The position numbers and the translations under genes are program-made. The notes below the pieces were generated by a model, which made no database searches, was not told where the DNA came from, and was given only the letters and a program-made list of their open reading frames with translations. Shown piece after piece: positions 53,361 to 64,000 of a stretch of DNA of 64,000 nt. Each line of letters starts with the position of its first letter. The stretch's first letter is position 1. The stretch is taken from assembly GCA_964498245.1 (NCBI GenBank), contig CAZCGK010000006.1, forward strand, positions 944 to 64,943, given 5' to 3'. The DNA comes from an uncultured archaeon (GTDB lineage Archaea; Aenigmatarchaeota; Aenigmatarchaeia; QMZP01).

Positions 53361-53642
53361 TTATACAAATACAGTGGTGTTGTCAAATTCTATCAATGGT
53401 TTATTCTTAATCCTTTTGAATCTTCTTTCACACTTCTTACATAACGTTGCTATCTCTATTTCAACATCCGTTTCAGAAGAAAGTTTTTTGAAATATTTTT
53501 TGAGAAATATAAAATTCTGGAAATCTATATCACCGATATATACACTTTTATGCAACCTTACAAAACCGTTATTTCTTAAAAAATTTCTTATTTTTTCCCT
53601 TTTTCTATCATCACTTATATCATAGCTTGTTATTGCAAGCAT
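53361..53642 (-). CDS. cas2: CRISPR-associated endonuclease Cas2
   Basis: SYDISDDRKR...GFVRLHKSVYIG; GGTGA SD before ATG at 53642. Confidence 0.93.
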   Translation of the reverse strand: MLAITSYDISDDRKREKIRNFLRNNGFVRLHKSVYIGDIDFQNFIFLKKYFKKLSSETDVEIEIATLCKKCERRFKRIKNKPLIEFDNTTVFV

Positions 53643-54591
53643 TGCTTTCACCAAACGGTACAAATTCGCTTCTATCGAGAATGTAATCAACCCAGTGATT
53701 AATTCTTTTCTTTATTAATGATTTTGTTTTATCCAGCTTGTTAAGAACATTTTCTATAACAATTTTTCTACCCTTTTCGTTAAGATACATACCTCCGTGT
53801 TTTTTCGGATTCAATATTTTTTTAAACACAAGCCTTAGGATAGTCGAATCTACAATTGGTTGCCTGAATTCTTCCATAAAATCCAACACAAGACACGGTT
53901 TCCTGCCTTTTTCTTCATGGTAAAAACCTATGTAAGGATCAAACCCTTTCATTACAAGATATTTCCATAGTTCAGAAAAAAGAATACCATATCCATAACT
54001 CAGAGAAGCATTAACTATATCTTGAGGTGGACGTGTTCTCCCATTAAAACGAAAGAATTTTGGAATTATTTTTCTGAGAGACTCAAAATATAATTTTGCA
54101 GAAATGCCTTCTATGCCTCTTAATTCTTCTATAGATTGTTTTTGATAAATTTTTGACAACCAAGTTTCAAGCTGTCCAGCATATTTCATTAAAAGATTAC
54201 ATTTTTCTTTACTCGTTCTTTTTCTTGAGTATGCAAGTGATTTTATAATACCGATTTTATTTTTTATGCATGCATGAACAATACCTTGAATTATGTCAAT
54301 GTTTTTTTCTATAGACTTTTTATATTGCATTTTTCTTAATATGGGAAAATTTTCATTTGTTATGTAATATAATTTTGCAACAGGCATACCGAATCTGTCC
54401 ATGAATGTAAGATCTTTTTTAGAATTGACTATAAGAGCTATTGCAGAAGAACTTATGCCGCAGCTTTTATATAATATTATTCTTTCAATGTTGGTTATAG
54501 AATATTCTTCACTTTTTTCATCCGTATATAGAACCAACCTGCCCTGTTTTTTACCGATAAATGTGCCGTGTTTATCTATTATTATATTCAT
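53620..54591 (-). CDS. cas1: CRISPR-associated endonuclease Cas1
   Basis: LRGIEG..AKLYF, R.RPPQD.VNA.LSYGY, DPYIGFYH, LVLDFMEEFRQPIVD. Confidence 0.96.
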   Translation of the reverse strand: MNIIIDKHGTFIGKKQGRLVLYTDEKSEEYSITNIERIILYKSCGISSSAIALIVNSKKDLTFMDRFGMPVAKLYYITNENFPILRKMQYKKSIEKNIDIIQGIVHACIKNKIGIIKSLAYSRKRTSKEKCNLLMKYAGQLETWLSKIYQKQSIEELRGIEGISAKLYFESLRKIIPKFFRFNGRTRPPQDIVNASLSYGYGILFSELWKYLVMKGFDPYIGFYHEEKGRKPCLVLDFMEEFRQPIVDSTILRLVFKKILNPKKHGGMYLNEKGRKIVIENVLNKLDKTKSLIKKRINHWVDYILDRSEFVPFGESNACNNKL

Positions 54592-55483
54592 TGTGTTCAC
54601 CTTTGCAGAATGAATTGAAACAACATGAATTGCATAATAACGTTTTCTTTCCCTGAGGGAAAACGCGCCTTAGATAGTATGAAATACATTTATCTCTCAG
54701 GTCTTTTGCATATTTTCTTAATTCATCGTCTATTTTGAAGGAATATGCTTTATTAGCATCTAAATAATATATTGTACCCTTGTTACAATTTTTATGAAAA
54801 ATTCTTTCAAGAGCAATAGAATAGAATACCACCTGTAATTTATCCGTGAACCATGGTTCATTTTTTGGAGAATTGCCTGTTTTTATTTCTTCTACTGTAA
54901 AGGTGTTATTTTTCTGAAAAATTATATCTATTCTGCCAGACACGGCTATATCTTTACTCGAAAAATAATATTCTTTCGCAAACGGGAGTATGATTTTCTT
55001 TATTTCATTTATTGTGGTCTTGTTAAAGAGCATAAATTCTATTCTTTCTCTATCTCTGACCCACCTTTTCAAAACAGAATTATTAATTTTTTCAACAATA
55101 TCCTTTGGAATATTTTGCTCTGTACATATTTCTGATATTTTATTTTGCCATAGAAACATGAAATTGTTTAAAGATCTAGTATAATTAAGCGATTCTATCA
55201 AATCCTCAAGAAGTTCATAATAATCTTTGATTAGAATCCTATGTTTTATCAAGCCAATCGACATGTTGAATGATTTTTCCGATTTACCTTCGATAGCAGA
55301 ATAATAAAATTTTCGTGGACAAATGTAAAAAGATATGTACGACCTTACGGGTAAAATTATATTTTTGTCTGTATTCCAATACTCAGAATATCCTCTGAAT
55401 TTATCAGAAATAGAGGAGGCGCCTCCTGAGTTTATCTGCTTCATCTTGCGCATCAGCCAACTATCCTTACTAGAACAAGTCAA
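54572..55483 (-). CDS. cas4: Cas4 family exonuclease (long, Csa1/Cas4a-like)
   Basis: CPRKFY, SGRIDII, VEEIKTG, QVVFY, C-terminal CNSCCFNSFC Fe-S ligands; strong SD AAGGAGGTGA before TTG at 55483. Confidence 0.9.
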   Translation of the reverse strand: MTCSSKDSWLMRKMKQINSGGASSISDKFRGYSEYWNTDKNIILPVRSYISFYICPRKFYYSAIEGKSEKSFNMSIGLIKHRILIKDYYELLEDLIESLNYTRSLNNFMFLWQNKISEICTEQNIPKDIVEKINNSVLKRWVRDRERIEFMLFNKTTINEIKKIILPFAKEYYFSSKDIAVSGRIDIIFQKNNTFTVEEIKTGNSPKNEPWFTDKLQVVFYSIALERIFHKNCNKGTIYYLDANKAYSFKIDDELRKYAKDLRDKCISYYLRRVFPQGKKTLLCNSCCFNSFCKGEHNEYNNR

Positions 55484-55648
55484 ATTATCACCTCCTTATT
55501 CTTAATGAGAAATAGTTTGAATCAAATAGCAAATACTTTACATGAACGGTTCAAATTTTATTGAACACATAGAAAATTTTTATATTGTTCAATTATTTGT
55601 TTAACCATAAGCCAAATATTTATAAGTTTTAATTTGTTTTTCATTCTT
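55484..55648. promoter_or_regulatory. Divergent cas promoter region with repeated TGAAC/GTTCA palindromic half-sites
   Basis: TGAAC-G-GTTCA at 55543-55553; ATTGAACA (55560-55567) / TGTTCAAT (55586-55593) flank a TTTTTATA box; TTTGA-A-TCAAA at 55516-55526. Confidence 0.55.
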
Positions 55649-56875
55649 ATGGGAAAAGTTCTGGTAATGAGTGTCGGTGTTGGTGGAAACAACAAAGAAA
55701 GCCTTGCAAACGCTTTGAAATATTCCATCCAACACCACAATCCGGAAAAAGTAATATTTCTTGTTTCTGAGCAGAGTAAGAATGAAGTATTACCGCTTAT
55801 AGTTGAGGATATGGATTCTGAGTATGAAACTATAGATGTGTCCGATATAAACGACATAGATAAATTATATGAAAAATTTGTAACTATATTTTCTCTGTTG
55901 TTGAAAAGAGGATATAAACATAAAGATATAGTTGTAGATTTCACAAGTGGCACAAAAGCCATGAGTGCTGCCCTTGCAATTGCAAGTATATCTATGGAAA
56001 TAGAAAATCTTAGTTATATAATGGGCGATAGAAAGGATGGTACTGTTATATCTGGTAGGGAGAGAATTCTGCCATTAAGACCTTATAGTATATTAATTGA
56101 TAACCAGCTAAAGATAATCGATACTTTGTTTTCATTCTACAGGTTTGATGCATGTATAGATATAATCAATACATTAAAACGGAAAACCAATGCTGATGAT
56201 ATACAAAGCATTCTTAATAAATATGAAAACATTTGTTTGGCCTATTCTTTGTGGGATAAGTTCGACCACAGTTCTGCACAAGAGAAATTAAAAGATGTAA
56301 AGAATATTTTGCGCAAAAATTATGGATTTTTAGGCAGACTTAATGCTTTAAAGAAAAATGAGGAAAATGATGTTTTCGAATATCTGATAGCAGATCTGAT
56401 AAACAATGCTAAGAGAAGAGGAAAGGAAGGAAGATATGATGATGCTGTTGCCAGATTGTATAGAGCAGTTGAGATGGTTGCTCAGTACAGACTTAAATCT
56501 CTGGGATTTGATACCTCTGATATAGATATGAGAAAAATACCAGAAAAACATAAAGAGAAATACAATCAACTCAAAGATAAAAAAACGGGTAAGATAAAGC
56601 TACCTCTTTATAAAAGCTATGAATTGTTATCCGATATTGACGATGAAATTGGTAAAAAGTTTTATGAAAACGAAGAGCTCCAGAAATATTTAAGAGTCAG
56701 AAACGACTCGGTTTTAGCTCATGGAATAACACCTATTACGCAAGAATTATACGAAAAGTTATTGAAAGCCACTATAGATTTTATAAAAGATGTTTTCCCA
56801 GATATTGAAAATCTCATGAGAATCTCTGAATTTCCCAGTTCAATACCCATTGAACGGTACAAAAAAGAGATTTAG
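55649..56875 (+). CDS. csm6: CARF-HEPN ribonuclease (Csm6 / TIGR02710-like)
   Basis: SVGVG strand; VDFTSGTKAMSAAL CARF motif; GRYDDAVARLYRAVEM; HEPN RNDSVLAH. Confidence 0.88.
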   Translation: MGKVLVMSVGVGGNNKESLANALKYSIQHHNPEKVIFLVSEQSKNEVLPLIVEDMDSEYETIDVSDINDIDKLYEKFVTIFSLLLKRGYKHKDIVVDFTSGTKAMSAALAIASISMEIENLSYIMGDRKDGTVISGRERILPLRPYSILIDNQLKIIDTLFSFYRFDACIDIINTLKRKTNADDIQSILNKYENICLAYSLWDKFDHSSAQEKLKDVKNILRKNYGFLGRLNALKKNEENDVFEYLIADLINNAKRRGKEGRYDDAVARLYRAVEMVAQYRLKSLGFDTSDIDMRKIPEKHKEKYNQLKDKKTGKIKLPLYKSYELLSDIDDEIGKKFYENEELQKYLRVRNDSVLAHGITPITQELYEKLLKATIDFIKDVFPDIENLMRISEFPSSIPIERYKKEI

Positions 56876-56898: not shown

Positions 56899-57633
56899 AT
56901 GATGAACACCCAACAAATCTTCCAGATAGCAACTCTGGGTGAACAACCAGAACCAATAATATATTTGTTGAAGGCATATCCAAATACAAAAAAGATTTTT
57001 CTTATTTGTAGTGATAAGTCTGTGGATTATTCCGAACCGATAGAAAAAACATGCGATATTCTCGATATTGATGTGGATAAAAGAATAATTCAACCGCAAA
57101 AAATTTCCAACATCATAAAGGAAATTATAATTATCGCAAAGGAATGCGGTTATTCTCCACCGGTTTTCTATGGCATTAGAAGCAAAAAACCTCATAAAAT
57201 AATAAAAGAAGCCAAAGCAAAGAAAAGAGAAAATGCTAACATCTTCATCAATATAACTGGTGGAACAAAGGTTATGAGTTCTGCCGCTTTATATTCTGCG
57301 TATCTTATAGGCGCGAAAGCGTTTTATGTATGGAAAAATGATGATAATGGTGATATGGAAATAATAAATCTACCTACATTGAATTTATCGATAGAAAATT
57401 TTCTTTCACCAGTGCGTCTTAAGATACTTGGTGTTCTTTATGAAAAACAAAAGGTAAAGTCTTCCGAGGAGATAAGAAAGGACACGGAAATCCAAAAATC
57501 TACCATCAGCCATATTATAAGAGAACTGGAAAAAATAAACCTTGTAAAAACAACAGGAGGACGAAGTAAATATCTTCAGACAGAAATAACAGAAGAGGGT
57601 AGATTGATATATGAAATTTACGGAAAGAGGTGA
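56899..57633 (+). CDS. CARF + winged HTH protein (Csa3-like regulator)
   Basis: INITGGTKVMSS CARF motif; C-terminal LKIL...STISHIIRELEKINLV...ITEEG wHTH. Confidence 0.82.
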   Translation: MMNTQQIFQIATLGEQPEPIIYLLKAYPNTKKIFLICSDKSVDYSEPIEKTCDILDIDVDKRIIQPQKISNIIKEIIIIAKECGYSPPVFYGIRSKKPHKIIKEAKAKKRENANIFINITGGTKVMSSAALYSAYLIGAKAFYVWKNDDNGDMEIINLPTLNLSIENFLSPVRLKILGVLYEKQKVKSSEEIRKDTEIQKSTISHIIRELEKINLVKTTGGRSKYLQTEITEEGRLIYEIYGKR

Positions 57634-59906
57634 GAGAAATGATAGATATAGAATCTGTAAAAATTGGTGCATTGCTACATGATATAGGAAAACCTTTAGT
57701 TGGTAGGAAAGAATTTATTGGTAAAACACATTCAAGAATAGGATATGAATTATTACAACCTTTAAAATCTTTGCTTGGTGAGAAATCACTCAAGGCTGTT
57801 TTATATCATATGTACGAAGAAAGAAAACGTGAATGTATAGATTATAATAAGCTAGATGATGAATGTATTATCGTTGATATAGCCGACAATCTTGCTTCTG
57901 CATCTGATAGAGAAGAAAAGGAAAGCGATGAAAAAAGTTCTTATATTATCGATCCTATAACAAAGAAAACAGTCGAACCTTATCTACATGGCATAAAACA
58001 CTTGAAAAACTTACCACTTTATCTTTCAAAAATACCAAATTTCAACAAAAGTATAATACTTTCAAAGATTTTGCTTGAACCAAAACCATCAAATGGAAAC
58101 AATTCAGAAGTTAAAAGTGGTCTTAGTGAAATAACTAAACTGCTAAAAAAATGGAGAGCATCTTATTATTCTCCCAACCATTCTTTATACCATCATATAA
58201 AACTTACAGCAGCAATAGCAACATGTATCGCATATGACATGAAAAACGGCATTATTAATATAGAGAATGTCAAAAATTATGACGTTAAATTTGCTCTCGT
58301 CTCAGGAGATATAAGAGGTATACAAAACTTTATTTCGCAATCAAGAAAATTCAGAGATTTGCATAATTCCAGCCAGATAATAATGGATGTAATAAATAAT
58401 TTAGCTGAATGTATAGAATCAAAATATGGAATTCAGAATGTTCTGTATAAAGGTGGTGGAAATTTTTTGGTATTACTTCCTTACTCTGAATATGAAAAGG
58501 ATATAGAAAAACTTGAAAACAGATTTCAGCAGTATTTATCCGGTATGGGATGGAAAAAGGGTATTAAAAAACCATTTTCTGTTTTGTTTTCTGTGAGCAT
58601 TTTGAGAAAAACAGGTAGTGAGAATAAAACAAACTCACACGAAATAAGTAATTTCGGTAAATGCTGGGAGCGATTGCAGAAAATATCATTTTATGGAAAG
58701 TCAAGAGGTTTCAAAAAGATTATTGAAAAAAATTATCATGAAATTGATGATTATTTTCCTGATATTGTTCATGCAAGACAATATGAAGAATTTATATGTT
58801 CCCTTTGCGGTGAAAGAGAAGGCATGTATAAAACGGATAAAGAAAAACGAGAGATTCTTTGCGAGATATGCTACAGAAAAAGAAACAGAAAAACCAGAAC
58901 GTATGTTGACCTTGGAGAAATTGCAATAGCTTCTATCAAAGACAAGGTAATTAATTTTATGGGTGTCAAAGAATTTGAAAAGATTGTAGGAAAATCAATA
59001 AATGATATCTCGTATGATGATTTGATCAAAATAAAAGAGAATATCACAAAAAAGAATGTGAAAAAGGAGGTTAAGGAATTTTTTGCAAAGCTCAAGATAC
59101 CAAAAGAAATAGCGGTATTAAAAATCGATGGAGATAACCTTGGTAGATGGTTTTCTGGAAAGGGGATAAAAGAAGAGTGTGAAAAGGAAAAGCGAAGAGT
59201 TAGGAAAACTACAGAAAAAGGGAAAGAGGAAGAATGTAAAGTTACAATAGCAACAATTTCTTATCTAAGCGAACAGATAAAGAGTTTGGAAAGAGATATA
59301 ATAAAAACCATCAAAAAATGTAAAGGAGAATGCGTATACACAGGTGGTGATGATACTCTTGCCGTGTTACCTTTATCCCAAGCTGTTCGGTGTGCAATGG
59401 AGGTCAATGAACTTTTCAGAAAAAGGTTTACAGGAACCGATAATGAGCAAAAAATAACAATTTCTGCAGGCATATTTGTATGCGATCATCACTTCCATTT
59501 AAGATTTGCACTTGAAGAGGCAGAAAAAATGCTTTCTACATCGAAAGGTGAAGGTAAAAATAAATGTACAATTGGAGTTATGGGCAAGGTTGGAAATTAT
59601 ATAACATATGAATGGAAAGAGCTTGAAAGATTATGGAATGGTATAAACCTGATAAAAATTCCGAGGAATGAACTATACAAATTAAGAACAATTCTTCACA
59701 GCAAATCTGATGAAACGGAAAAACTGAACGAAATTAGAGCGTTCTTGATATATCAGCTTTCGAGAAAGAAAGAAGATGAGATAGAGGAATTCAGGAATTT
59801 TGTTGAGTTTATTCTTCGGGAAATAAAGAATGATGGTATCAGATTTTTGAACAAGTTTTTCCAGCTTGTGGAAATAAAAACTGAGGAGGTGGATAATGAA
59901 AAGTGA
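57630..59906 (+). CDS. cas10: Type III CRISPR large subunit Cas10 with HD nuclease and intact cyclase palm
   Basis: LLHDIGK...HSRIG...ADNLAS (HD); SGDIRGIQNFI; YKGGGNF; Zn ribbon CSLC...CEIC; KIDGDNLG; YTGGDD. Confidence 0.96.
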   Translation: MREMIDIESVKIGALLHDIGKPLVGRKEFIGKTHSRIGYELLQPLKSLLGEKSLKAVLYHMYEERKRECIDYNKLDDECIIVDIADNLASASDREEKESDEKSSYIIDPITKKTVEPYLHGIKHLKNLPLYLSKIPNFNKSIILSKILLEPKPSNGNNSEVKSGLSEITKLLKKWRASYYSPNHSLYHHIKLTAAIATCIAYDMKNGIINIENVKNYDVKFALVSGDIRGIQNFISQSRKFRDLHNSSQIIMDVINNLAECIESKYGIQNVLYKGGGNFLVLLPYSEYEKDIEKLENRFQQYLSGMGWKKGIKKPFSVLFSVSILRKTGSENKTNSHEISNFGKCWERLQKISFYGKSRGFKKIIEKNYHEIDDYFPDIVHARQYEEFICSLCGEREGMYKTDKEKREILCEICYRKRNRKTRTYVDLGEIAIASIKDKVINFMGVKEFEKIVGKSINDISYDDLIKIKENITKKNVKKEVKEFFAKLKIPKEIAVLKIDGDNLGRWFSGKGIKEECEKEKRRVRKTTEKGKEEECKVTIATISYLSEQIKSLERDIIKTIKKCKGECVYTGGDDTLAVLPLSQAVRCAMEVNELFRKRFTGTDNEQKITISAGIFVCDHHFHLRFALEEAEKMLSTSKGEGKNKCTIGVMGKVGNYITYEWKELERLWNGINLIKIPRNELYKLRTILHSKSDETEKLNEIRAFLIYQLSRKKEDEIEEFRNFVEFILREIKNDGIRFLNKFFQLVEIKTEEVDNEK

Positions 59907-60354
59907 ATATGAACTGGGGAAGCAAATTGCAAAAGAACTAGCAAATGCAGGTGTTTCAGAGACCAAATACAGACAACTGTATAACATAATCATCAACAGT
60001 TCAGCATATCAAGATGTTGAAAGAAGGCTTAAGAAAAAAGAAGGCTCGGATACAGAAAGAGACAAACAAATAGAAAATGAAATACTTGAAGTGTTCAACA
60101 GACTGAAGGGTGTATTAATTTACAGTGCAACCCGAGGAGAATTGGCTAGTGGTGATAATAAACGAGAAAGATTTGAGAAATCACAGAAAGTTACAGAATT
60201 CTTTTTGCAAAAGCTATCCCAATACAAACCAGAGATTGAGGATTTCAGAAGGTTCAAAAAAGTAATGGAGTATGCAACCATGTTCTTTAAATTTTACAGT
60301 GATCCCAAACTGAAAAATTTCCGAGAGAGTCTTGAAAATAAAAACCTGATATAG
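59896..60354 (+). CDS. csm2: Type III small subunit (Csm2/Cas11)
   Basis: Alpha-helical 152 aa directly after cas10; TKYRQLY...L..L.Y...R...F....EY...F.K. Confidence 0.7.
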   Translation: MKSEYELGKQIAKELANAGVSETKYRQLYNIIINSSAYQDVERRLKKKEGSDTERDKQIENEILEVFNRLKGVLIYSATRGELASGDNKRERFEKSQKVTEFFLQKLSQYKPEIEDFRRFKKVMEYATMFFKFYSDPKLKNFRESLENKNLI

Positions 60355-60365
60355 GAGGTGAAATT

Positions 60366-61022
60366 ATGGAAAGTAGAGCAAAATTGAAAGAAAGGGTTGT
60401 TTTAAACTGCGTGTTAACCGTGAAAAGTCAGCTGCATATAGGTGCGGGAAAGGAAGCCATAACTCCAGGAACGACAGACCTGGTTGTGATAAGGGATTCC
60501 AACGACATGGTATACATTCCCGGATCTTCGATAAGGGGCTGTCTGAGAATGGAAGCAGAAAAGCTTTCAGATGAGGAAACCATAGAAAAAATTTTTGGTA
60601 GAGCTGATAAAGAGAGTTTGGCATCAAAAATTATTGTAAGAAACGGTTATTTGAAAGAAGAGGAAGTGATAGGACTGGACACACGACCCGGTATTCAAAT
60701 AGACAGGGAAACAGGTAGTGTAAAAAAAGGTGCCCTGTTTTTCACAGAAGCAATACCAAGGGGTACAAAGTTTTACTTTCAGATAATTGTAGACAATCCT
60801 ACAGATGAAGAGCTCCAGCTTATACTTGCAGCAATCAGAGCAGTTAATGACAGAGGACTAGGTCACGGTGTTTCAAGAGGATTCGGACATGTTGTGATCA
60901 AAATAAAAGACGATTCTGTAATCAAAACGCCAACATCCTACATCACAGGGGAAACAGAAAGTTTCATTGAGAAATACAAAAAACTGAATCTCGATGACCT
61001 TATTATAAAAGCGAGTGATTGA
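60366..61022 (+). CDS. csm3: Cas7-group RAMP (Csm3)
   Basis: LHIGAG, TTDLVVIRD (candidate catalytic Asp), YIPGSSIRG, R.GI.IDR.TG, G-rich loop GLGHGVSRGFG. Confidence 0.92.
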   Translation: MESRAKLKERVVLNCVLTVKSQLHIGAGKEAITPGTTDLVVIRDSNDMVYIPGSSIRGCLRMEAEKLSDEETIEKIFGRADKESLASKIIVRNGYLKEEEVIGLDTRPGIQIDRETGSVKKGALFFTEAIPRGTKFYFQIIVDNPTDEELQLILAAIRAVNDRGLGHGVSRGFGHVVIKIKDDSVIKTPTSYITGETESFIEKYKKLNLDDLIIKASD

Positions 61023-61023
61023 A

Positions 61024-61764
61024 ATGCAAATCGCACCTGAATTAAAGGAGAGAAGAATCGTTAAATGTGAAATGAAATTGTTAGAGACAGGTAGGAAGTG
61101 GCTGATACTTGATTCTTCCATGAATCTGCAGATACCTGGTTCATGGATAAAGGGTATAATAAGAAGAGAAGCCGAAGAAAGACAGTACTTAATTATAGAT
61201 AATCAGAAGTTTGTAAAATGTGCTGTAGGGCAGAAATTCGATTTCAGAGCATTAAAACACGGAAACAGTTATAAAGAATTCTGGGACGAAAGAGAGAAAA
61301 AATGGAAGGAACCAGCAAAATATATACCGCCTTTTGCTAATATAAAAAGGACATACACTTACAGCAGAAAATATAAGAGACACTACGGTACATTTTGCGG
61401 AAACTTGAGACAGGAACGACAAATTAATAATGAAAAACAAAAACTTGAAATAATATGCGATGTCTGCAAAATATTCGGTTGCGCAGGGGGATTTTACAGT
61501 TATGCAAGTAAAGCAAAATTCAGCAATGGATTTATGAACAATGTAAACTTTACTTTCTCTATAGTATTTGATATCAGTAACGAAGAAGATACACGTCTTT
61601 ATAACAGGCTTATTGAAGTTTTAAAAGCATTCGAAAACGGAAACACAATTCTTGAGAAGGAGATTCTACCAAGACATAGATTAAATAGAACACTGGGTTT
61701 TTCCTTGAAAGTGGTTGAAGAAAAAACTATAAAACCTGAGGATTATCTGGGAGGTGAAATATGA
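61024..61764 (+). CDS. Atypical/degenerate Cas7-like RAMP with basic-aromatic insertion
   Basis: LQIPGSWIKGIIRREAE and CDVCKIFG...SKAKFS are RAMP-core motifs; lacks the N-terminal xHIG motif and the C-terminal G-rich loop. Confidence 0.6.
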   Translation: MQIAPELKERRIVKCEMKLLETGRKWLILDSSMNLQIPGSWIKGIIRREAEERQYLIIDNQKFVKCAVGQKFDFRALKHGNSYKEFWDEREKKWKEPAKYIPPFANIKRTYTYSRKYKRHYGTFCGNLRQERQINNEKQKLEIICDVCKIFGCAGGFYSYASKAKFSNGFMNNVNFTFSIVFDISNEEDTRLYNRLIEVLKAFENGNTILEKEILPRHRLNRTLGFSLKVVEEKTIKPEDYLGGEI

Positions 61765-62834
61765 GTCCTGTAATTCTGGATGTAACAATCAAACTCCTCT
61801 CACCTATGTACATAGGTGTCGGGTATGAGTTTACTCACTTAAAGCGTTGCAAGGATTATATTCCGGGAATAGTTCTGAGAGGCGCGTTTGAAACAGCTAT
61901 CACGGAAATTTATGGAGATAAAGATATTGTGGAAAGTGTTCATAACAAAATATTTCAGAAATACGAAATGAAAAATGGTAAAATCATAAATAGCAATAAA
62001 AAGGGAAATGCCTATTTTCGTCCAGCATATCCAATGATTGAAGAAACGAAACTGTTACCCTGTCCACAAAATGTCTCATATTGTCCTAAATGTGGAAAAT
62101 TGCTTCGCGATAAACCTATTTGTCCAGAACATAACGAAAAATGTAAAAGAATAAAATGGATTTCTGAAGAAGGATTGGAAATGGTTATGAATAATGGAGA
62201 AGTGAATGAGAAACTGAATGGTGAAATTCCGAAAAAAAGAAAAATATGGAGAATATCTCTTGAAACCAGTAAGGGCACGGTGAAGGAAGGACCCTTTGTA
62301 TATGAAGCAATTGAAAAAGATGAATGTTTTCATACCCGGATAATTTTGTTGAAGGACTTTGTAAAGGAGTTCATAAACGCTGCTAAATACTTAGAAGACA
62401 GTGGTATCGGTGCACTTACAAAAATGGGATTTGGTGAAGTTGAGATAAAAATCAAACAATCTCAACACGAACCAAACACTATTAAATCATTGGATAAGGA
62501 TGAAATTTCTATAACAGCTCTATCTCCAATAATTACTTCTTCACCTGATGTTTTAAAGGAAGTTTCTAAATCGGATTTGCGAATAAATTATGAACCTGAG
62601 TTGAGAAGACTTGAACTATCTGGATACAACGGCTCTGTTGTGCCTGTTCGAGGATGGTCTTTAGAATATAAAAGGAGAAATCTTCAGTTTGCACTGGATA
62701 AAGGTTCTGTTATATTTTATAAAATTGGAAAAAACATTGATAAGGAAAAACTCATCGACGAGATTAAAAGAGCTCAAATATTCGGTATAGGTAAAAATTC
62801 GATGTTTGGCTTTGGTTGGATCATGTTCCATTAA
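61761..62834 (+). CDS. Cas5-group RAMP with two G-rich loops (Csx10/Csm4-like)
   Basis: LLSPMYIG, DYIPGIVLRGA, CPKC...CPEH, GIGALTKMGFG and GIGKNSMFGFG. Confidence 0.75.
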   Translation: MSPVILDVTIKLLSPMYIGVGYEFTHLKRCKDYIPGIVLRGAFETAITEIYGDKDIVESVHNKIFQKYEMKNGKIINSNKKGNAYFRPAYPMIEETKLLPCPQNVSYCPKCGKLLRDKPICPEHNEKCKRIKWISEEGLEMVMNNGEVNEKLNGEIPKKRKIWRISLETSKGTVKEGPFVYEAIEKDECFHTRIILLKDFVKEFINAAKYLEDSGIGALTKMGFGEVEIKIKQSQHEPNTIKSLDKDEISITALSPIITSSPDVLKEVSKSDLRINYEPELRRLELSGYNGSVVPVRGWSLEYKRRNLQFALDKGSVIFYKIGKNIDKEKLIDEIKRAQIFGIGKNSMFGFGWIMFH

Positions 62835-63025: not shown

Positions 63026-64000
63026 GAAGAAATCGGAAATAGGAAAGGAGTACATGGCAACTTTCTCCTAGATATGCATTAGGATAACCTTTGTTTCTAC
63101 ATGAAGAAATCGGAAATAGGAAAGGAGTACATGGCAACGTAGCTGTTGTATGCTCTTGCTATTATTTTGCTATTTTCTTGAAGAAATCGGAAATAGGAAA
63201 GGAGTACATGGCAACCTCCTTATAATTCTTTTCGCAATTTCTGGAGTTACCAATTGAAGAAATCGGAAATAGGAAAGGAGTACATGGCAACAATTATTCC
63301 TCCGAGCACTCCAAGATAAGGCGCTTTTGAAGAAATCGGAAATAGGAAAGGAGTACATGGCAACTGAGTTTCTCTTTGCAGATATTCCTTAGTTTTTTGA
63401 GTAGAAGAAATCGGAAATAGGAAAGGAGTACATGGCAACTCCACACTCCAAAACCCAAGGGTCATTTTTGAAATCACTGGAAGAAATCGGAAATAGGAAA
63501 GGAGTACATGGCAACGAATGTCTCTGAGTGCGATCAGTTCATCATAATCTTTATAGAAGAAATCGGAAATAGGAAAGGAGTACATGGCAACGTGTGGAGT
63601 GAAATTTAAAATTTTTACATTTTTCATTTTTTGAAGAAATCGGAAATAGGAAAGGAGTACATGGCAACTTATGAAACATTTGTCTGTCAGAATGTCTACA
63701 TACATGCTCGAAGAAATCGGAAATAGGAAAGGAGTACATGGCAACAGTTAAATATTTGCTTTTCTTCCCCAGCATTGAGAGTATAAGGAAGAAATCGGAA
63801 ATAGGAAAGGAGTACATGGCAACTTATTCACCTCCCGATTCATTCTATCTTACCTTTTCCCAGAAGAAATCGGAAATAGGAAAGGAGTACATGGCAACTT
63901 GTTTTCAGATTTCATGGTTTTAGCCATGAAATCACCTCGAAGAAATCGGAAATAGGAAAGGAGTACATGGCAACTGTAAATTACTGTTTTCGTATCGTCG
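63026..64000 (+). CRISPR. CRISPR array: 13 identical 36-bp repeats GAAGAAATCGGAAATAGGAAAGGAGTACATGGCAAC, 12 complete spacers (37-42 bp) plus one truncated
   Basis: Repeat starts at 63026, 63103, 63180, 63256, 63329, 63404, 63480, 63556, 63633, 63710, 63788, 63863, 63939. The 3' end ATGGCAAC resembles the 8-nt ATTGAAAC-type handle, which with the leader position supports + orientation. Confidence 0.99.

What the first reader, a model, noticed from the sequence alone, without database searches (positions are those of the whole stretch)
61024..61764. Degenerate 246-aa RAMP with a basic/aromatic, Cys-containing insertion
Seen: it retains IPGSWIKGIIRREAE and CDVCKIFG...SKAKFS but lacks the xHIG strand, the thumb and the G-rich loop. 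Between the two motifs lies an ~95-aa insert rich in K/R/Y/W/F (KEFWDEREKKWKEPAKYIPPF...YTYSRKYKRHYGTFCG) with further Cys residues. Known: terminal Cas7-like subunits (Csm5, III-D Cas7-insertion) cap the crRNA 3' end and govern target seeding. Inference: a novel capping subunit whose insert binds RNA, or which could take part in crRNA maturation.
Basis: partly seen in the sequence, partly recalled or inferred. Interest (0 to 1): 0.6.

Follow-up and report, generated by a model that had tools for sequence, protein, structure and literature searches.

The report
Thumbless Cas7 paralogue, probable type III cap
This gene encodes a rare, heavily remodelled copy of the CRISPR type III backbone protein Cas7 that has lost its RNA-cutting loop and the parts that recruit the next subunit. 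It probably ends the protein filament at the 3' end of the guide RNA, a job other type III systems give to unrelated-looking cap proteins.

Summary
ORF 61024-61764 (+), 246 aa, sits in a type III operon: cas10, cas11, cas7/csm3, X, cas5, then a 62-repeat array.

X is a real, selected gene. Its only known homologue is 72% identical, lies on an 884-bp metagenome contig and has the same gene neighbours. dN/dS is 0.12 overall and 0.15 in the insert.

X is a Cas7/Csm3-group RAMP, shown by:
- PADLOC Csm3, E 3.4e-7
- hhalign, 96%
- structural Z 13 to M. jannaschii Csm3

It fails every curated cut-off.

Measured against 20 other Cas7s, X differs in four segments:
- RNase loop: 19 residues against 32-57
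- Thumb: 9 against 40-56
- G-rich loop: 18 against 5
- alpha1-beta2 segment ("insertion domain 2", the known zinc site of Cas7 proteins): 103 against 15-85. It is basic and aromatic, with conserved Cys.

The face that accepts a neighbour's thumb is kept and the face that donates one is lost. A complex model places Csm3's thumb side against X's alpha1 side (0.66 against 0.00 for controls).

Best reading (0.6): a non-catalytic terminal cap, functionally like Csm5, Sso Cas7e or the III-Dv Cas7-insertion, but not a member of those families. Related loci have four genes and no cap.

A stand-alone cas6 lies on another contig, so X is not needed for primary crRNA processing.

Verdict: new variant of a known kind, moderate interest.

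The parts
61024..61764 (+). Gene X (P0001, 246 aa): degenerate Cas7/Csm3-group RAMP, the proposed terminal cap subunit
   Evidence: ORF. PADLOC Csm3 PDLC01442, E 3.4e-7. hhalign against 16 Cas7s, 96.3%, E 1.9e-9. VIA Z 13.0 to 4qts_C. dN/dS 0.12. The ATG lies one base after the csm3 stop, and the stop overlaps the cas5 ATG as ATGA.
61132..61176 (+). alpha1 motif IPGSWIKGIIRREAE (residues 37-51): retained crRNA-binding helix and thumb-acceptor face
   Evidence: P38, G44 and R47 are invariant, and I37, S40 and K43 nearly invariant, across 22 Cas7s. Residues 38-43 lie in the predicted interface with Csm3. The equivalent SeCsm3 alpha1 residues bind crRNA (PMC10289348).
61078..61134 (+). Shortened beta1-alpha1 segment (residues 19-37): RNase loop with the catalytic Asp is deleted
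   Evidence: 19 residues against 32-57 in 20 Cas7s. BLASTP against the neighbouring Csm3 shows a 12-aa gap over the HIG loop. The only Asp, D30, is Gly in P0002.
61198..61425 (+). Expanded alpha1-beta2 'insertion domain 2' (residues 59-134), basic and aromatic, with two highly conserved blocks (83-94 and 107-129)
   Evidence: pI 9.9, net charge +11, 18% aromatic. pLDDT below 50 even with an alignment. No Pfam or Atlas domain. Blocks 100% and 87% identical between the two sequences. dN/dS 0.15.
61456..61479 (+). CDVCKIFG (residues 145-152): second half of the Cas7 zinc knuckle plus the FG motif. Putative partner ligands are C125 and either C66 or C153.
   Evidence: The same C..C..CxxCKIFG pattern occurs in the Cas7 of related loci and in MjCsm3 4qts_C. 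All these Cys are invariant in P0002. Zinc binding itself is inferred.
61534..61548 (+). Site of the thumb deletion (residues 171-175)
   Evidence: 9 residues between the beta2 and beta3 anchors, against 40-56 in other Cas7s.
61639..61698 (+). Replaced G-rich loop (residues 206-225): 18 residues with a predicted short helix in place of GGxxSRGxG
   Evidence: Alignment A3, lengths, predicted helix 209-217.
60366..61022 (+). Canonical Cas7/Csm3 backbone subunit (218 aa): has the RNase loop, thumb and G-rich loop but no zinc knuckle
   Evidence: PF03787, E 4e-30. PADLOC Csm3, E 1e-31. Alignment A3.
61761..62834 (+). Cas5-group subunit (Csm4/Csx10-like, 357 aa) with a Cys/His insert
   Evidence: TIGR02674 and TIGR01903 hits below cut-off. 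PADLOC Csm4 5e-13 and Cas5_IIId 8e-12. CPKC and CPEH motifs.
59896..60354 (+). Cas11/Csm2 small subunit (152 aa)
   Evidence: PF03750, E 2.5e-4. PADLOC Csm2, E 1.6e-6.
57630..59906 (+). Cas10 with an HD motif (residue 17), a four-Cys finger and GGDD (residue 572)
   Evidence: TIGR02578, 193 bits, over cut-off. Motifs.
63026..64000 (+). CRISPR array. It has 36-nt repeats ending AUGGCAAC and continues past the window to 62 repeats on the contig, with the degenerate copies at the far end.

Best explanation
X is a non-catalytic, chain-terminating Cas7 paralogue that caps the 3' end of the Cas7 filament in this type III effector (Cas10, Cas5, Cas11 and Csm3 in several copies, one X, crRNA).

Proposed mechanism:
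- X keeps the RRM core and the alpha1 helix. It can therefore hold the last 6-nt crRNA segment and accept the intercalating thumb of the last Csm3.
- X has no thumb and no G-rich loop of its own, so no further Cas7 can dock. This fixes the length of the complex.
- X has no RNase loop or conserved acidic residue, so it does not cut target RNA.
- Its enlarged alpha1-beta2 domain is basic and aromatic and probably zinc-stapled. This domain faces the crRNA-target duplex in solved Csm3 structures. It is proposed to grip the crRNA 3' end or the target, and possibly to block extension of the Cas11 filament.

Shown here: Cas7 homology and fold, the losses and the gain, purifying selection, conserved synteny, and absence of any other cap gene in the genome.

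Inferred: position in the complex, zinc binding, and RNA binding by the insert.
For: 1. X belongs to the Cas7/Csm3 group.
- PADLOC Csm3, E 3.4e-7.
- hhalign, 96.3%.
- The AF2 model built with a 22-sequence alignment has a core pLDDT above 90.
- Its best matches are all Csm3: Foldseek E 8e-6, and VIA Z 13.0, rmsd 3.1 A over 146 residues to 4qts_C.
- The Atlas model gives TM 0.55-0.58 to Csx7/Csm3 clusters.

2. Selective loss of the donor elements. The thumb is 9 residues against 40-56, the G-loop is replaced, and the RNase loop is 19 against 32-57. The alpha1 motif, FG and beta2 are retained.

3. Complex prediction of Csm3 with X.
- Score 0.66, best of 3 controls 0.00.
- The mark was reached by 58 of 80 solved complexes and 2 of 110 mismatched pairs. 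My own alignments were used, so these counts hold only roughly.
- The runs agree in at least 41% of contacts, and the partner's pLDDT is at least 56.
- The interface pairs Csm3's thumb base (103-110, 131-132), G-loop (169-172) and RRM helix (151-164) with X's N-terminus/beta1, alpha1 start (38-43), beta2 (161-168) and C-tail (236-244).
- In S. epidermidis Csm, the thumb of subunit n contacts the crRNA held by alpha1 of subunit n+1, toward the 3' end. Csm5's thumb does not intercalate (PMC10289348). X is therefore modelled on the 3' side.

4. No other candidate cap in the genome (92.6% complete).
- Only two PF03787 genes.
- A Cas7 profile finds only csm3 and X.
- TIGR01899 (Csm5) gives nothing above 14 bits.

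5. Gene-level support.
- X is translationally coupled inside the effector operon.
- The csm3-X-cas5 order is kept in the second sample.
- dN/dS is 0.12.

6. Precedents.
- The terminal III-Dv Cas7-insertion lacks a thumb hairpin, and its basic insertion cradles the crRNA 3' seed with aromatic stacking (PMC11026444).
- Sso1427 (Cas7e) caps SsoCsm (PMC9945777).
- The alpha2 region of Csm3, between alpha1 and beta2, contacts the duplex minor groove and is larger in archaeal Csm3.
Against: - There is no experimental or structural data for this protein.
- Only two sequences exist, so conservation is weakly informative.
- The insert is modelled at pLDDT below 50.
- The complex prediction may pass from likeness to solved Csm3-Csm3 and Csm3-Csm5 complexes, and both alignments were Cas7 alignments. 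It shows that X still looks like a filament partner, not that it binds.
- The AF2 model was built from a Csm3-rich alignment, which biases it toward a Csm3 fold.
- The four nearest related loci work with cas10-cas11-cas7-cas5 and no cap gene, so a cap is not obligatory in this lineage.
- Gene order (between csm3 and cas5) differs from III-A, where csm5 follows csm4.
Confidence: 0.6

Rival explanations
1. X is an accessory RNA-binding or regulatory protein that is not a stable subunit of the effector complex. For example, it might bind pre-crRNA, target transcripts or the leader.
For: - X fails all curated RAMP cut-offs.
- It has a large basic, aromatic domain of no known family.
- Related four-gene systems do without it.
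Against: - X is embedded in the effector operon between two structural genes and translationally coupled to them.
- It keeps exactly the Cas7 surfaces that contact a neighbouring Cas7 and the crRNA.
- The predicted Csm3 interface scores 0.66 against 0.00 for the best control (58 of 80 solved complexes and 2 of 110 mismatched pairs reached the mark; agreement at least 41%; partner pLDDT at least 56).
Confidence: 0.14
2. X's main role is crRNA maturation. Either it recruits or positions host nucleases for 3' trimming, as S. epidermidis Csm5 does, or it cleaves RNA itself.
For: - Csm5 is a precedent (PMC10289348).
- There is no cas6 in the locus.
- X has conserved Tyr, Lys and His residues and one conserved His (H218) near the former G-loop.
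Against: - A stand-alone cas6 over its curated cut-off exists on contig C26 (TIGR01877, 66 bits against 58.65). The repeat ends in a normal 8-nt tag, AUGGCAAC.
- X has one RRM, not the two of Cas6, and every profile hit is to Csm3.
- No conserved acidic residue lies in the former RNase loop.
- A role in 3' trimming is compatible with the cap model rather than an alternative to it.
Confidence: 0.1
3. X is an internal backbone subunit occupying one defined, non-cleaving position, like Cas7b of SsoCsm. It would create a gap in the 6-nt cleavage ladder.
For: - The SsoCsm backbone is built in strict order from five Cas7 paralogues, one of which does not cleave (PMC9945777).
- X lacks the catalytic loop.
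Against: With a 9-residue thumb segment and no G-rich loop, X lacks the elements that Csm3 uses to contact the next subunit in the model and in solved filaments. The filament could not continue past it in the usual way.
Confidence: 0.07
4. X is a decaying duplicate of cas7 with no function.
For: - X has lost three hallmark Cas7 elements.
- It is an orphan with two known sequences.
- It sits on a long branch, about 2 changes per site.
Against: - The frame is intact in two lineages separated by dS of about 1.3.
- dN/dS is 0.12 overall and 0.09-0.15 in every segment, including the insert.
- Conserved blocks lie inside the insert.
- Synteny and start/stop coupling are conserved.
Confidence: 0.04

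Closest known systems
Csm3 / Cas7 of type III-A and III-D (TIGR02582, PF03787; PDB 4qts_C M. jannaschii, 6mut_C T. onnurineus)
   Same: - RRM core.
- alpha1 motif IPGSxxKGxxR, CxxCKIFG zinc-knuckle motif and ASKxKF beta2.
- A C-terminal tail similar to that of the neighbouring Csm3.
- Best sequence, profile and fold matches.
   Different: - No RNase loop or catalytic Asp, no thumb hairpin, and the G-rich loop is replaced.
- The alpha1-beta2 segment is 103 residues, against 15-85 in the others.
- Scores below curated cut-offs: TIGR02582 15.9 against 90 bits, PF03787 11.5 against 22.1 bits.
Csm5 (type III-A 3' cap; TIGR01899)
   Same: - Proposed role: a RAMP subunit that binds the crRNA 3' end through alpha1, blocks Csm3 extension and lacks catalysis.
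- Csm5's thumb does not intercalate (PMC10289348).
   Different: - No sequence match to TIGR01899 or to PADLOC Csm5.
- X is about 110 aa shorter.
- The extra domain lies between alpha1 and beta2 and is not Csm5's helical capping domain.
- The gene lies before cas5, not after it.
Cas7-insertion subunit of type III-Dv (Synechocystis, PDB 8s9t_E; TIGR03986) and the Cas7.4 insertion of III-E Cas7-11
   Same: - A terminal Cas7 without a thumb hairpin.
- A positively charged insertion that cradles the crRNA 3' end with aromatic stacking (PMC11026444).
   Different: - No TIGR03986 match for X, whereas the neighbouring Csm3 does match it.
- X is 246 aa against 795 aa.
- The X insert is about 60-90 aa with no detectable similarity to that insertion.
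- The lineage is different: a minimal Cas10 system related to Nitrososphaerales and Bathyarchaeia loci.
Cas7e (Sso1427) cap of the S. solfataricus III-D complex (PDB 8bmw)
   Same: A diverged Cas7 paralogue present once, capping the backbone and dispensable for RNase activity in reconstitution (PMC9945777).
   Different: - It belongs to an eight-subunit complex with five cas7 genes.
- No specific sequence relationship to X was found. The best 8bmw chain for X is a backbone Cas7 (Z 10.9).
Insertion domain 2 (zinc-binding domain) of Cas7 proteins T. pendens Csc2 and M. kandleri Csm3
   Same: - Same topological site, between alpha1 and beta2.
- About 80 aa in Csc2.
- Structural zinc bound by Cys and His (PMC4615900).
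   Different: - Those proteins keep the lid/thumb and are backbone subunits.
- The X domain has different sequence and composition and is not confidently modelled.

Membership tests
RAMP superfamily / Cas7 group (Csm3-like) | RRM (ferredoxin-like) core with the alpha1 motif, detectable by family profiles or by fold | tested here: met
   PADLOC Csm3, E 3.4e-7. hhalign 96.3%. VIA Z 13.0 to 4qts_C, rmsd 3.1 A over 146 aa. The model was built from a Cas7-rich alignment.
RAMP superfamily / Cas7 group (Csm3-like) | Score over curated cut-offs (PF03787 22.1 bits; TIGR02582 90 bits) | tested here: not met
   PF03787 11.5 bits. TIGR02582 15.9 bits.
Csm3 (catalytic backbone Cas7) | RNase loop after beta1 carrying the catalytic Asp | tested here: not met
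   The segment is 19 residues against 32-57. There is a 12-aa gap against the neighbouring Csm3. No acidic residue is conserved between P0001 and P0002 in this segment.
Csm3 (catalytic backbone Cas7) | beta-hairpin thumb that intercalates every sixth nucleotide | tested here: not met
   9 residues against 40-56 in 20 Cas7s.
Csm3 (catalytic backbone Cas7) | Glycine-rich loop (GGxxSRGxG) before the last core strand | tested here: not met
   Replaced by 18 unrelated residues. Only the final LG-F remains.
Csm5 (TIGR01899) | Match to the family profile | tested here: not met
   No TIGR01899 or PADLOC Csm5 hit for X. A whole-genome search gives at most 13.8 bits, against a cut-off of 38.3, and that hit lies in csm3.
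Csm5 (TIGR01899) | Single copy at the crRNA 3' end of the complex | not testable with these tools
   The only evidence is a two-chain model that places X on the thumb side of Csm3.
III-D/III-E Cas7-insertion (TIGR03986) | Match to the family profile and a large structured insertion domain | tested here: not met
   No TIGR03986 hit for X. The insert has no recognisable domain.
Zinc-knuckle Cas7 (insertion domain 2) | Four Cys/His ligands around CxxCxxFG, and bound zinc | tested here: inconclusive
   The ligand pattern is present and invariant in both sequences (C66 or C153, C125, C145, C148). Metal binding itself was not testable.
Cas6 | Two RRM domains and a match to Cas6 profiles | tested here: not met
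   X has one RRM and no Cas6 hit. The genome's Cas6 lies at C26:2803-3453.

The most novel reading that the evidence does not exclude
A lineage of minimal, cap-less type III systems (cas10-cas11-cas7-cas5) independently invented a cap. It would have done so by stripping a Cas7 copy of its catalytic loop, thumb and G-loop, and inflating its zinc knuckle into a zinc-stapled basic/aromatic module. That module would replace both the thumb and Csm5's capping domain, holding the crRNA 3' end as a target-seeding platform and stopping the Cas11 filament. This would be a third, convergent route to the 3' cap, alongside Csm5/Cmr1-6 and the III-D/E Cas7-insertion.
Probability: 0.3. Interest if true: 0.55.

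Novelty: new variant of a known kind. Interest (0 to 1): 0.4.

Why it matters
Type III complexes need something to end the Cas7 and Cas11 filaments and to present the crRNA 3' end, where target pairing is seeded. The known solutions are Csm5, Cmr1/Cmr6, Sso Cas7e and the III-D/E Cas7-insertion.

X would be a compact (246 aa), independently derived solution. In X, the elements that contact the next subunit are the ones lost, and the elements that accept the previous subunit are the ones kept. That makes it a natural "separation-of-function" Cas7 for studying filament polarity and length control.

It also shows a step by which a four-gene type III system gains complexity. The system sits in a small-genome archaeon of about 1.07 Mb with a 62-repeat array, so it appears to be in use.

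The find is narrow: two known sequences, and a role that is already familiar in principle.

Tried and rejected
1. More homologues. The only real hit in any search was P0002. The searches were:
- phmmer over 1.8 billion representatives
- the word-seeded search of 5.8 billion proteins
- pattern scans of metagenome and genome contigs with the X alignment
- a scan for the CRISPR repeat in metagenomes
- 371 genomes of the phylum

P0003 (23 short stretches in a 2180-aa protein), L004 (the wrong frame of another gene) and L005 (six stops) are spurious.

2. The neighbouring Cas5 and Cas10 also have no close relatives. The best Cas10 match is about 25% identical.

3. The single-sequence AF2 model was unusable, with pLDDT 36.

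4. Direct PDB sequence searches with X or with the X alignment gave only chance matches, at E of 0.37 or worse.

5. Internal duplication. hhalign aligned KYIPPF in the insert with the PYIPGS motif. A Smith-Waterman test of the two segments was no better than 1376 of 2000 shuffles, so this idea is rejected.

6. Origin by duplication of the neighbouring csm3. The ML tree leaves X unplaced on a long branch, so no claim is made.

7. The insert alone has no Pfam family, and its Atlas feature and fold matches are below meaningful levels.

8. Hidden X-like genes in related loci. The unannotated genes of about 230 aa there are CARF-wHTH proteins, not RAMPs.

9. Subtype assignment. [quoted passage not shown] This locus has GGDD, HD, CARF proteins, an adaptation module and an array, so I did not file it under any of them.

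Full report
**What is there**

The ORF at 61024-61764 (+) encodes 246 aa (P0001). Its ATG follows the stop codon of the upstream gene by one base. Its stop overlaps the ATG of the downstream gene as ATGA, behind a GGAGGTGA Shine-Dalgarno-like run.

The surrounding genes form a complete type III island:
- cas1 (53620-54600, -) and a Csa1-like cas4 (54572-55483, -)
- a CARF-HEPN Csm6-family gene (55634-56875)
- a CARF-wHTH Csa3 (56899-57633)
- cas10 (57630-59906), with HD, a four-Cys finger and GGDD
- cas11/csm2 (59896-60354)
- a canonical cas7/csm3 (60366-61022)
- X
- a Cas5-group gene (61761-62834)
- a CRISPR array from 63026

On the contig the array has 62 repeats, with the mutated copies at the far end. 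It is therefore read from the cas-proximal leader on the + strand. The repeat ends in AUGGCAAC, a normal-looking 8-nt tag.

The genome is 1.07 Mb in 71 contigs and 92.6% complete. I did not verify this.

**Is it a real gene?**

Yes. The only homologue found anywhere is P0002. It is 72-73% identical and lies on an 884-bp ENA contig. Its flanks encode the C-terminus of a Csm3 homologue and the N-terminus of a Cas5 homologue, so the gene order is the same.

Nei-Gojobori dN/dS is 0.12 at dS of about 1.3. It is 0.09-0.15 in each of four segments, including 0.15 for the insert.

Inside the insert, residues 83-94 are 12/12 identical and residues 107-129 are 20/23 identical. The linkers are 42-56% identical.

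**What family?**

No Pfam or NCBIfam model reaches its cut-off: PF03787 scores 11.5 bits and TIGR02582 scores 15.9 bits. Several lines still place X in the Cas7/Csm3 group:
- PADLOC's Csm3 model PDLC01442 matches at E 3.4e-7, with the match split around a large insertion.
- BLASTP against the neighbouring Csm3 aligns residues 1-51 at E 3e-5, with a 12-aa gap over the HIG loop.
- hhalign of the two X sequences against 16 Cas7s gives 96.3%, E 1.9e-9.
- An AF2 model built with a 22-sequence Cas7 alignment has pLDDT above 90 in the core and below 50 for residues 59-134.
- The model's best PDB matches are all Csm3: Foldseek E 8e-6 to 4qts, and VIA Z 13.0, rmsd 3.1 A over 146 residues, 25% identity to 4qts_C.
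- The Atlas's own model of X, and my model, both match Csx7/Csm3 clusters at TM 0.55-0.58.

Caveat: my model was built from a Cas7-rich alignment.

**Anatomy**

I measured four segments against 20 other Cas7s in alignment A3:

| Segment | X | Other Cas7s |
|---|---|---|
| beta1 to alpha1 (RNase loop) | 19 residues | 32-57 |
| thumb | 9 | 40-56 |
| G-rich loop | 18 unrelated residues | 5 in 18 of them (0 in two) |
| alpha1 to FG | 103 | 15-85 |

- The only Asp in the shortened RNase segment is Gly in P0002. The Csm3 catalytic mechanism is therefore absent.
- Retained elements are the alpha1 motif (P38, S40, K43, G44, R47), FG, ASKAKF (beta2), beta3, the RRM helix and a C-terminal tail like that of the neighbouring Csm3.
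- The "insert" is the Cas7 family's alpha1-beta2 "insertion domain 2". This domain holds a structural zinc in T. pendens Csc2, where it is 80 aa, and in M. kandleri Csm3 (PMC4615900).
- The Cas7s of the nearest related loci carry C-x8-C-x10-C-x2-C-KIFG. X has the same pattern: TFCGN matches SMCGS, and CDVCKIFG matches CIICKIFG.
- In X there are 58 residues between C66 and C125 and 19 between C125 and C145. C153 is a spare conserved Cys.
- The window's own Csm3 has lost this knuckle.
- Residues 67-124 have pI 10, net charge +9 and 22% aromatics. No known domain was found there.
- Two other DPANN Cas7s (L024, L035) carry 81-85-aa inserts at the same site but keep all other Cas7 elements. The site is a recurrent expansion point.

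**Context in relatives**

The closest Cas10 proteins are only about 25% identical and come from Bathyarchaeia and Nitrososphaerales. Four of their loci were read, two of them in two near-identical copies. All have cas10, cas11 (about 175 aa), cas7 (about 230 aa) and cas5 (326-398 aa), plus CARF proteins, and no further RAMP.

X is thus an addition to an otherwise cap-less four-gene effector. Its origin is unresolved: the ML tree leaves it on a long branch of about 2 changes per site, unplaced.

In this genome no other Cas7-like or Csm5-like gene exists.

**Mechanism**

In S. epidermidis Csm, alpha1 of Csm3.n+1 and the thumb of Csm3.n hold the same flipped crRNA nucleotide. Csm5 grips the 3' segment by alpha1, blocks Csm3 extension, and its thumb does not intercalate (PMC10289348).

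X keeps the acceptor side and has lost the donor side.

A two-chain prediction of Csm3 with X supports binding:
- The score is 0.66 and the best of 3 controls is 0.00.
- The mark was reached by 58 of 80 solved complexes and 2 of 110 mismatched pairs. My own alignments were used, so the counts hold only roughly.
- The runs agree in at least 41% of contacts, and the partner's pLDDT is at least 56.
- The interface pairs Csm3's thumb base, G-loop and RRM helix with X's beta1, alpha1 start, beta2 and C-tail. This places X 3' of Csm3.

Csm3-Csm3 and Csm3-Csm5 complexes are solved, so this pass shows likeness, not proof.

The alpha1-beta2 region of Csm3 contacts the duplex minor groove, and in archaeal Csm3 it also contacts target RNA. 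An enlarged basic/aromatic version of this region in the terminal subunit is therefore well placed to hold the crRNA 3' end. The insertion of the thumbless III-Dv Cas7-insertion does this (PMC11026444). This last step is inference.

**crRNA maturation**

The locus has no cas6. A stand-alone cas6 (276 aa, TIGR01877 66 bits against a cut-off of 58.65) lies on contig C26 beside a cofE-like gene. Primary processing therefore does not need X. A Csm5-like role in 3' trimming remains possible and was not tested.

**Comparison and verdict**

X works most like Csm5, Sso Cas7e and the III-Dv Cas7-insertion. By homology it is a Csm3-group Cas7, and it fails the defining catalytic and structural features of Csm3. 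It matches neither the Csm5 nor the TIGR03986 profile.

It is a new, very rare variant of a known kind of subunit. Capping by diverged Cas7 paralogues is an established theme, so a specialist would be interested but not astonished. Interest 0.4.

Noticed in passing
G000 contig C26:2803-3453 (-); locus L040:1459-2289 (-): A stand-alone cas6 (276 aa, TIGR01877 66 bits, over cut-off) lies beside a cofE-like gene, far from the only CRISPR-cas locus. It probably supplies primary crRNA processing in trans.
   Followed up: partly
window 63026-64000, continuing to C6:~68700: The array has 62 repeats: 48 exact copies, with the trailing copies carrying 1-2 mismatches (for example GTACATGG changed to GTATATGG). 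It runs almost to the contig end and is the only array in the assembly.
   Followed up: partly
L008-L011, L013, L014 (Nitrososphaerales / Bathyarchaeia and metagenome loci): The nearest Cas10 relatives (about 25% identity) sit in four-gene effector modules: cas10, cas11, cas7, cas5. They carry Csa3-like CARF-wHTH and Csm6-like genes but no cap subunit. Their subtype assignment is unclear.
   Followed up: partly
window 60366-61022: The canonical Csm3 of this locus has the shortest alpha1-beta2 segment of the set (15 residues) and has lost the four-Cys knuckle that its relatives and X retain.
   Followed up: yes
L024:592-1503 (-) and L035:1348-2256 (+) (genomes G132, G128): These Cas7 proteins of about 303 aa carry an 81-85-aa, apparently helical insertion at the same alpha1-beta2 site. 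They keep the RNase loop, thumb and G-loop and lie in multi-Cas7 loci of other DPANN genomes.
   Followed up: no
window 61761-62834: The Cas5-group protein carries a Cys/His cluster (CPKC at residue 108, CPEH at 121, and a further Cys). Relatives have a larger multi-CxxC insert (Pfam AF_1859_N). It has no close homologue in the 5.8-billion-protein search.
   Followed up: no
window 61318-61341 (X residues 99-106): KYIPPF inside the insert mimics the PYIPGS motif and pulled hhalign into a shifted register. A shuffle test shows no significant internal repeat.
   Followed up: yes
P0001 / P0002 against PADLOC PDLC02117: Both X sequences give weak hits (E 7e-5 and 1.4e-5) to a model named Cas7_IIIg. 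Subtype III-G also has a second, single-copy Cas7 (PMC12669027). Any relationship was not examined.
   Followed up: no
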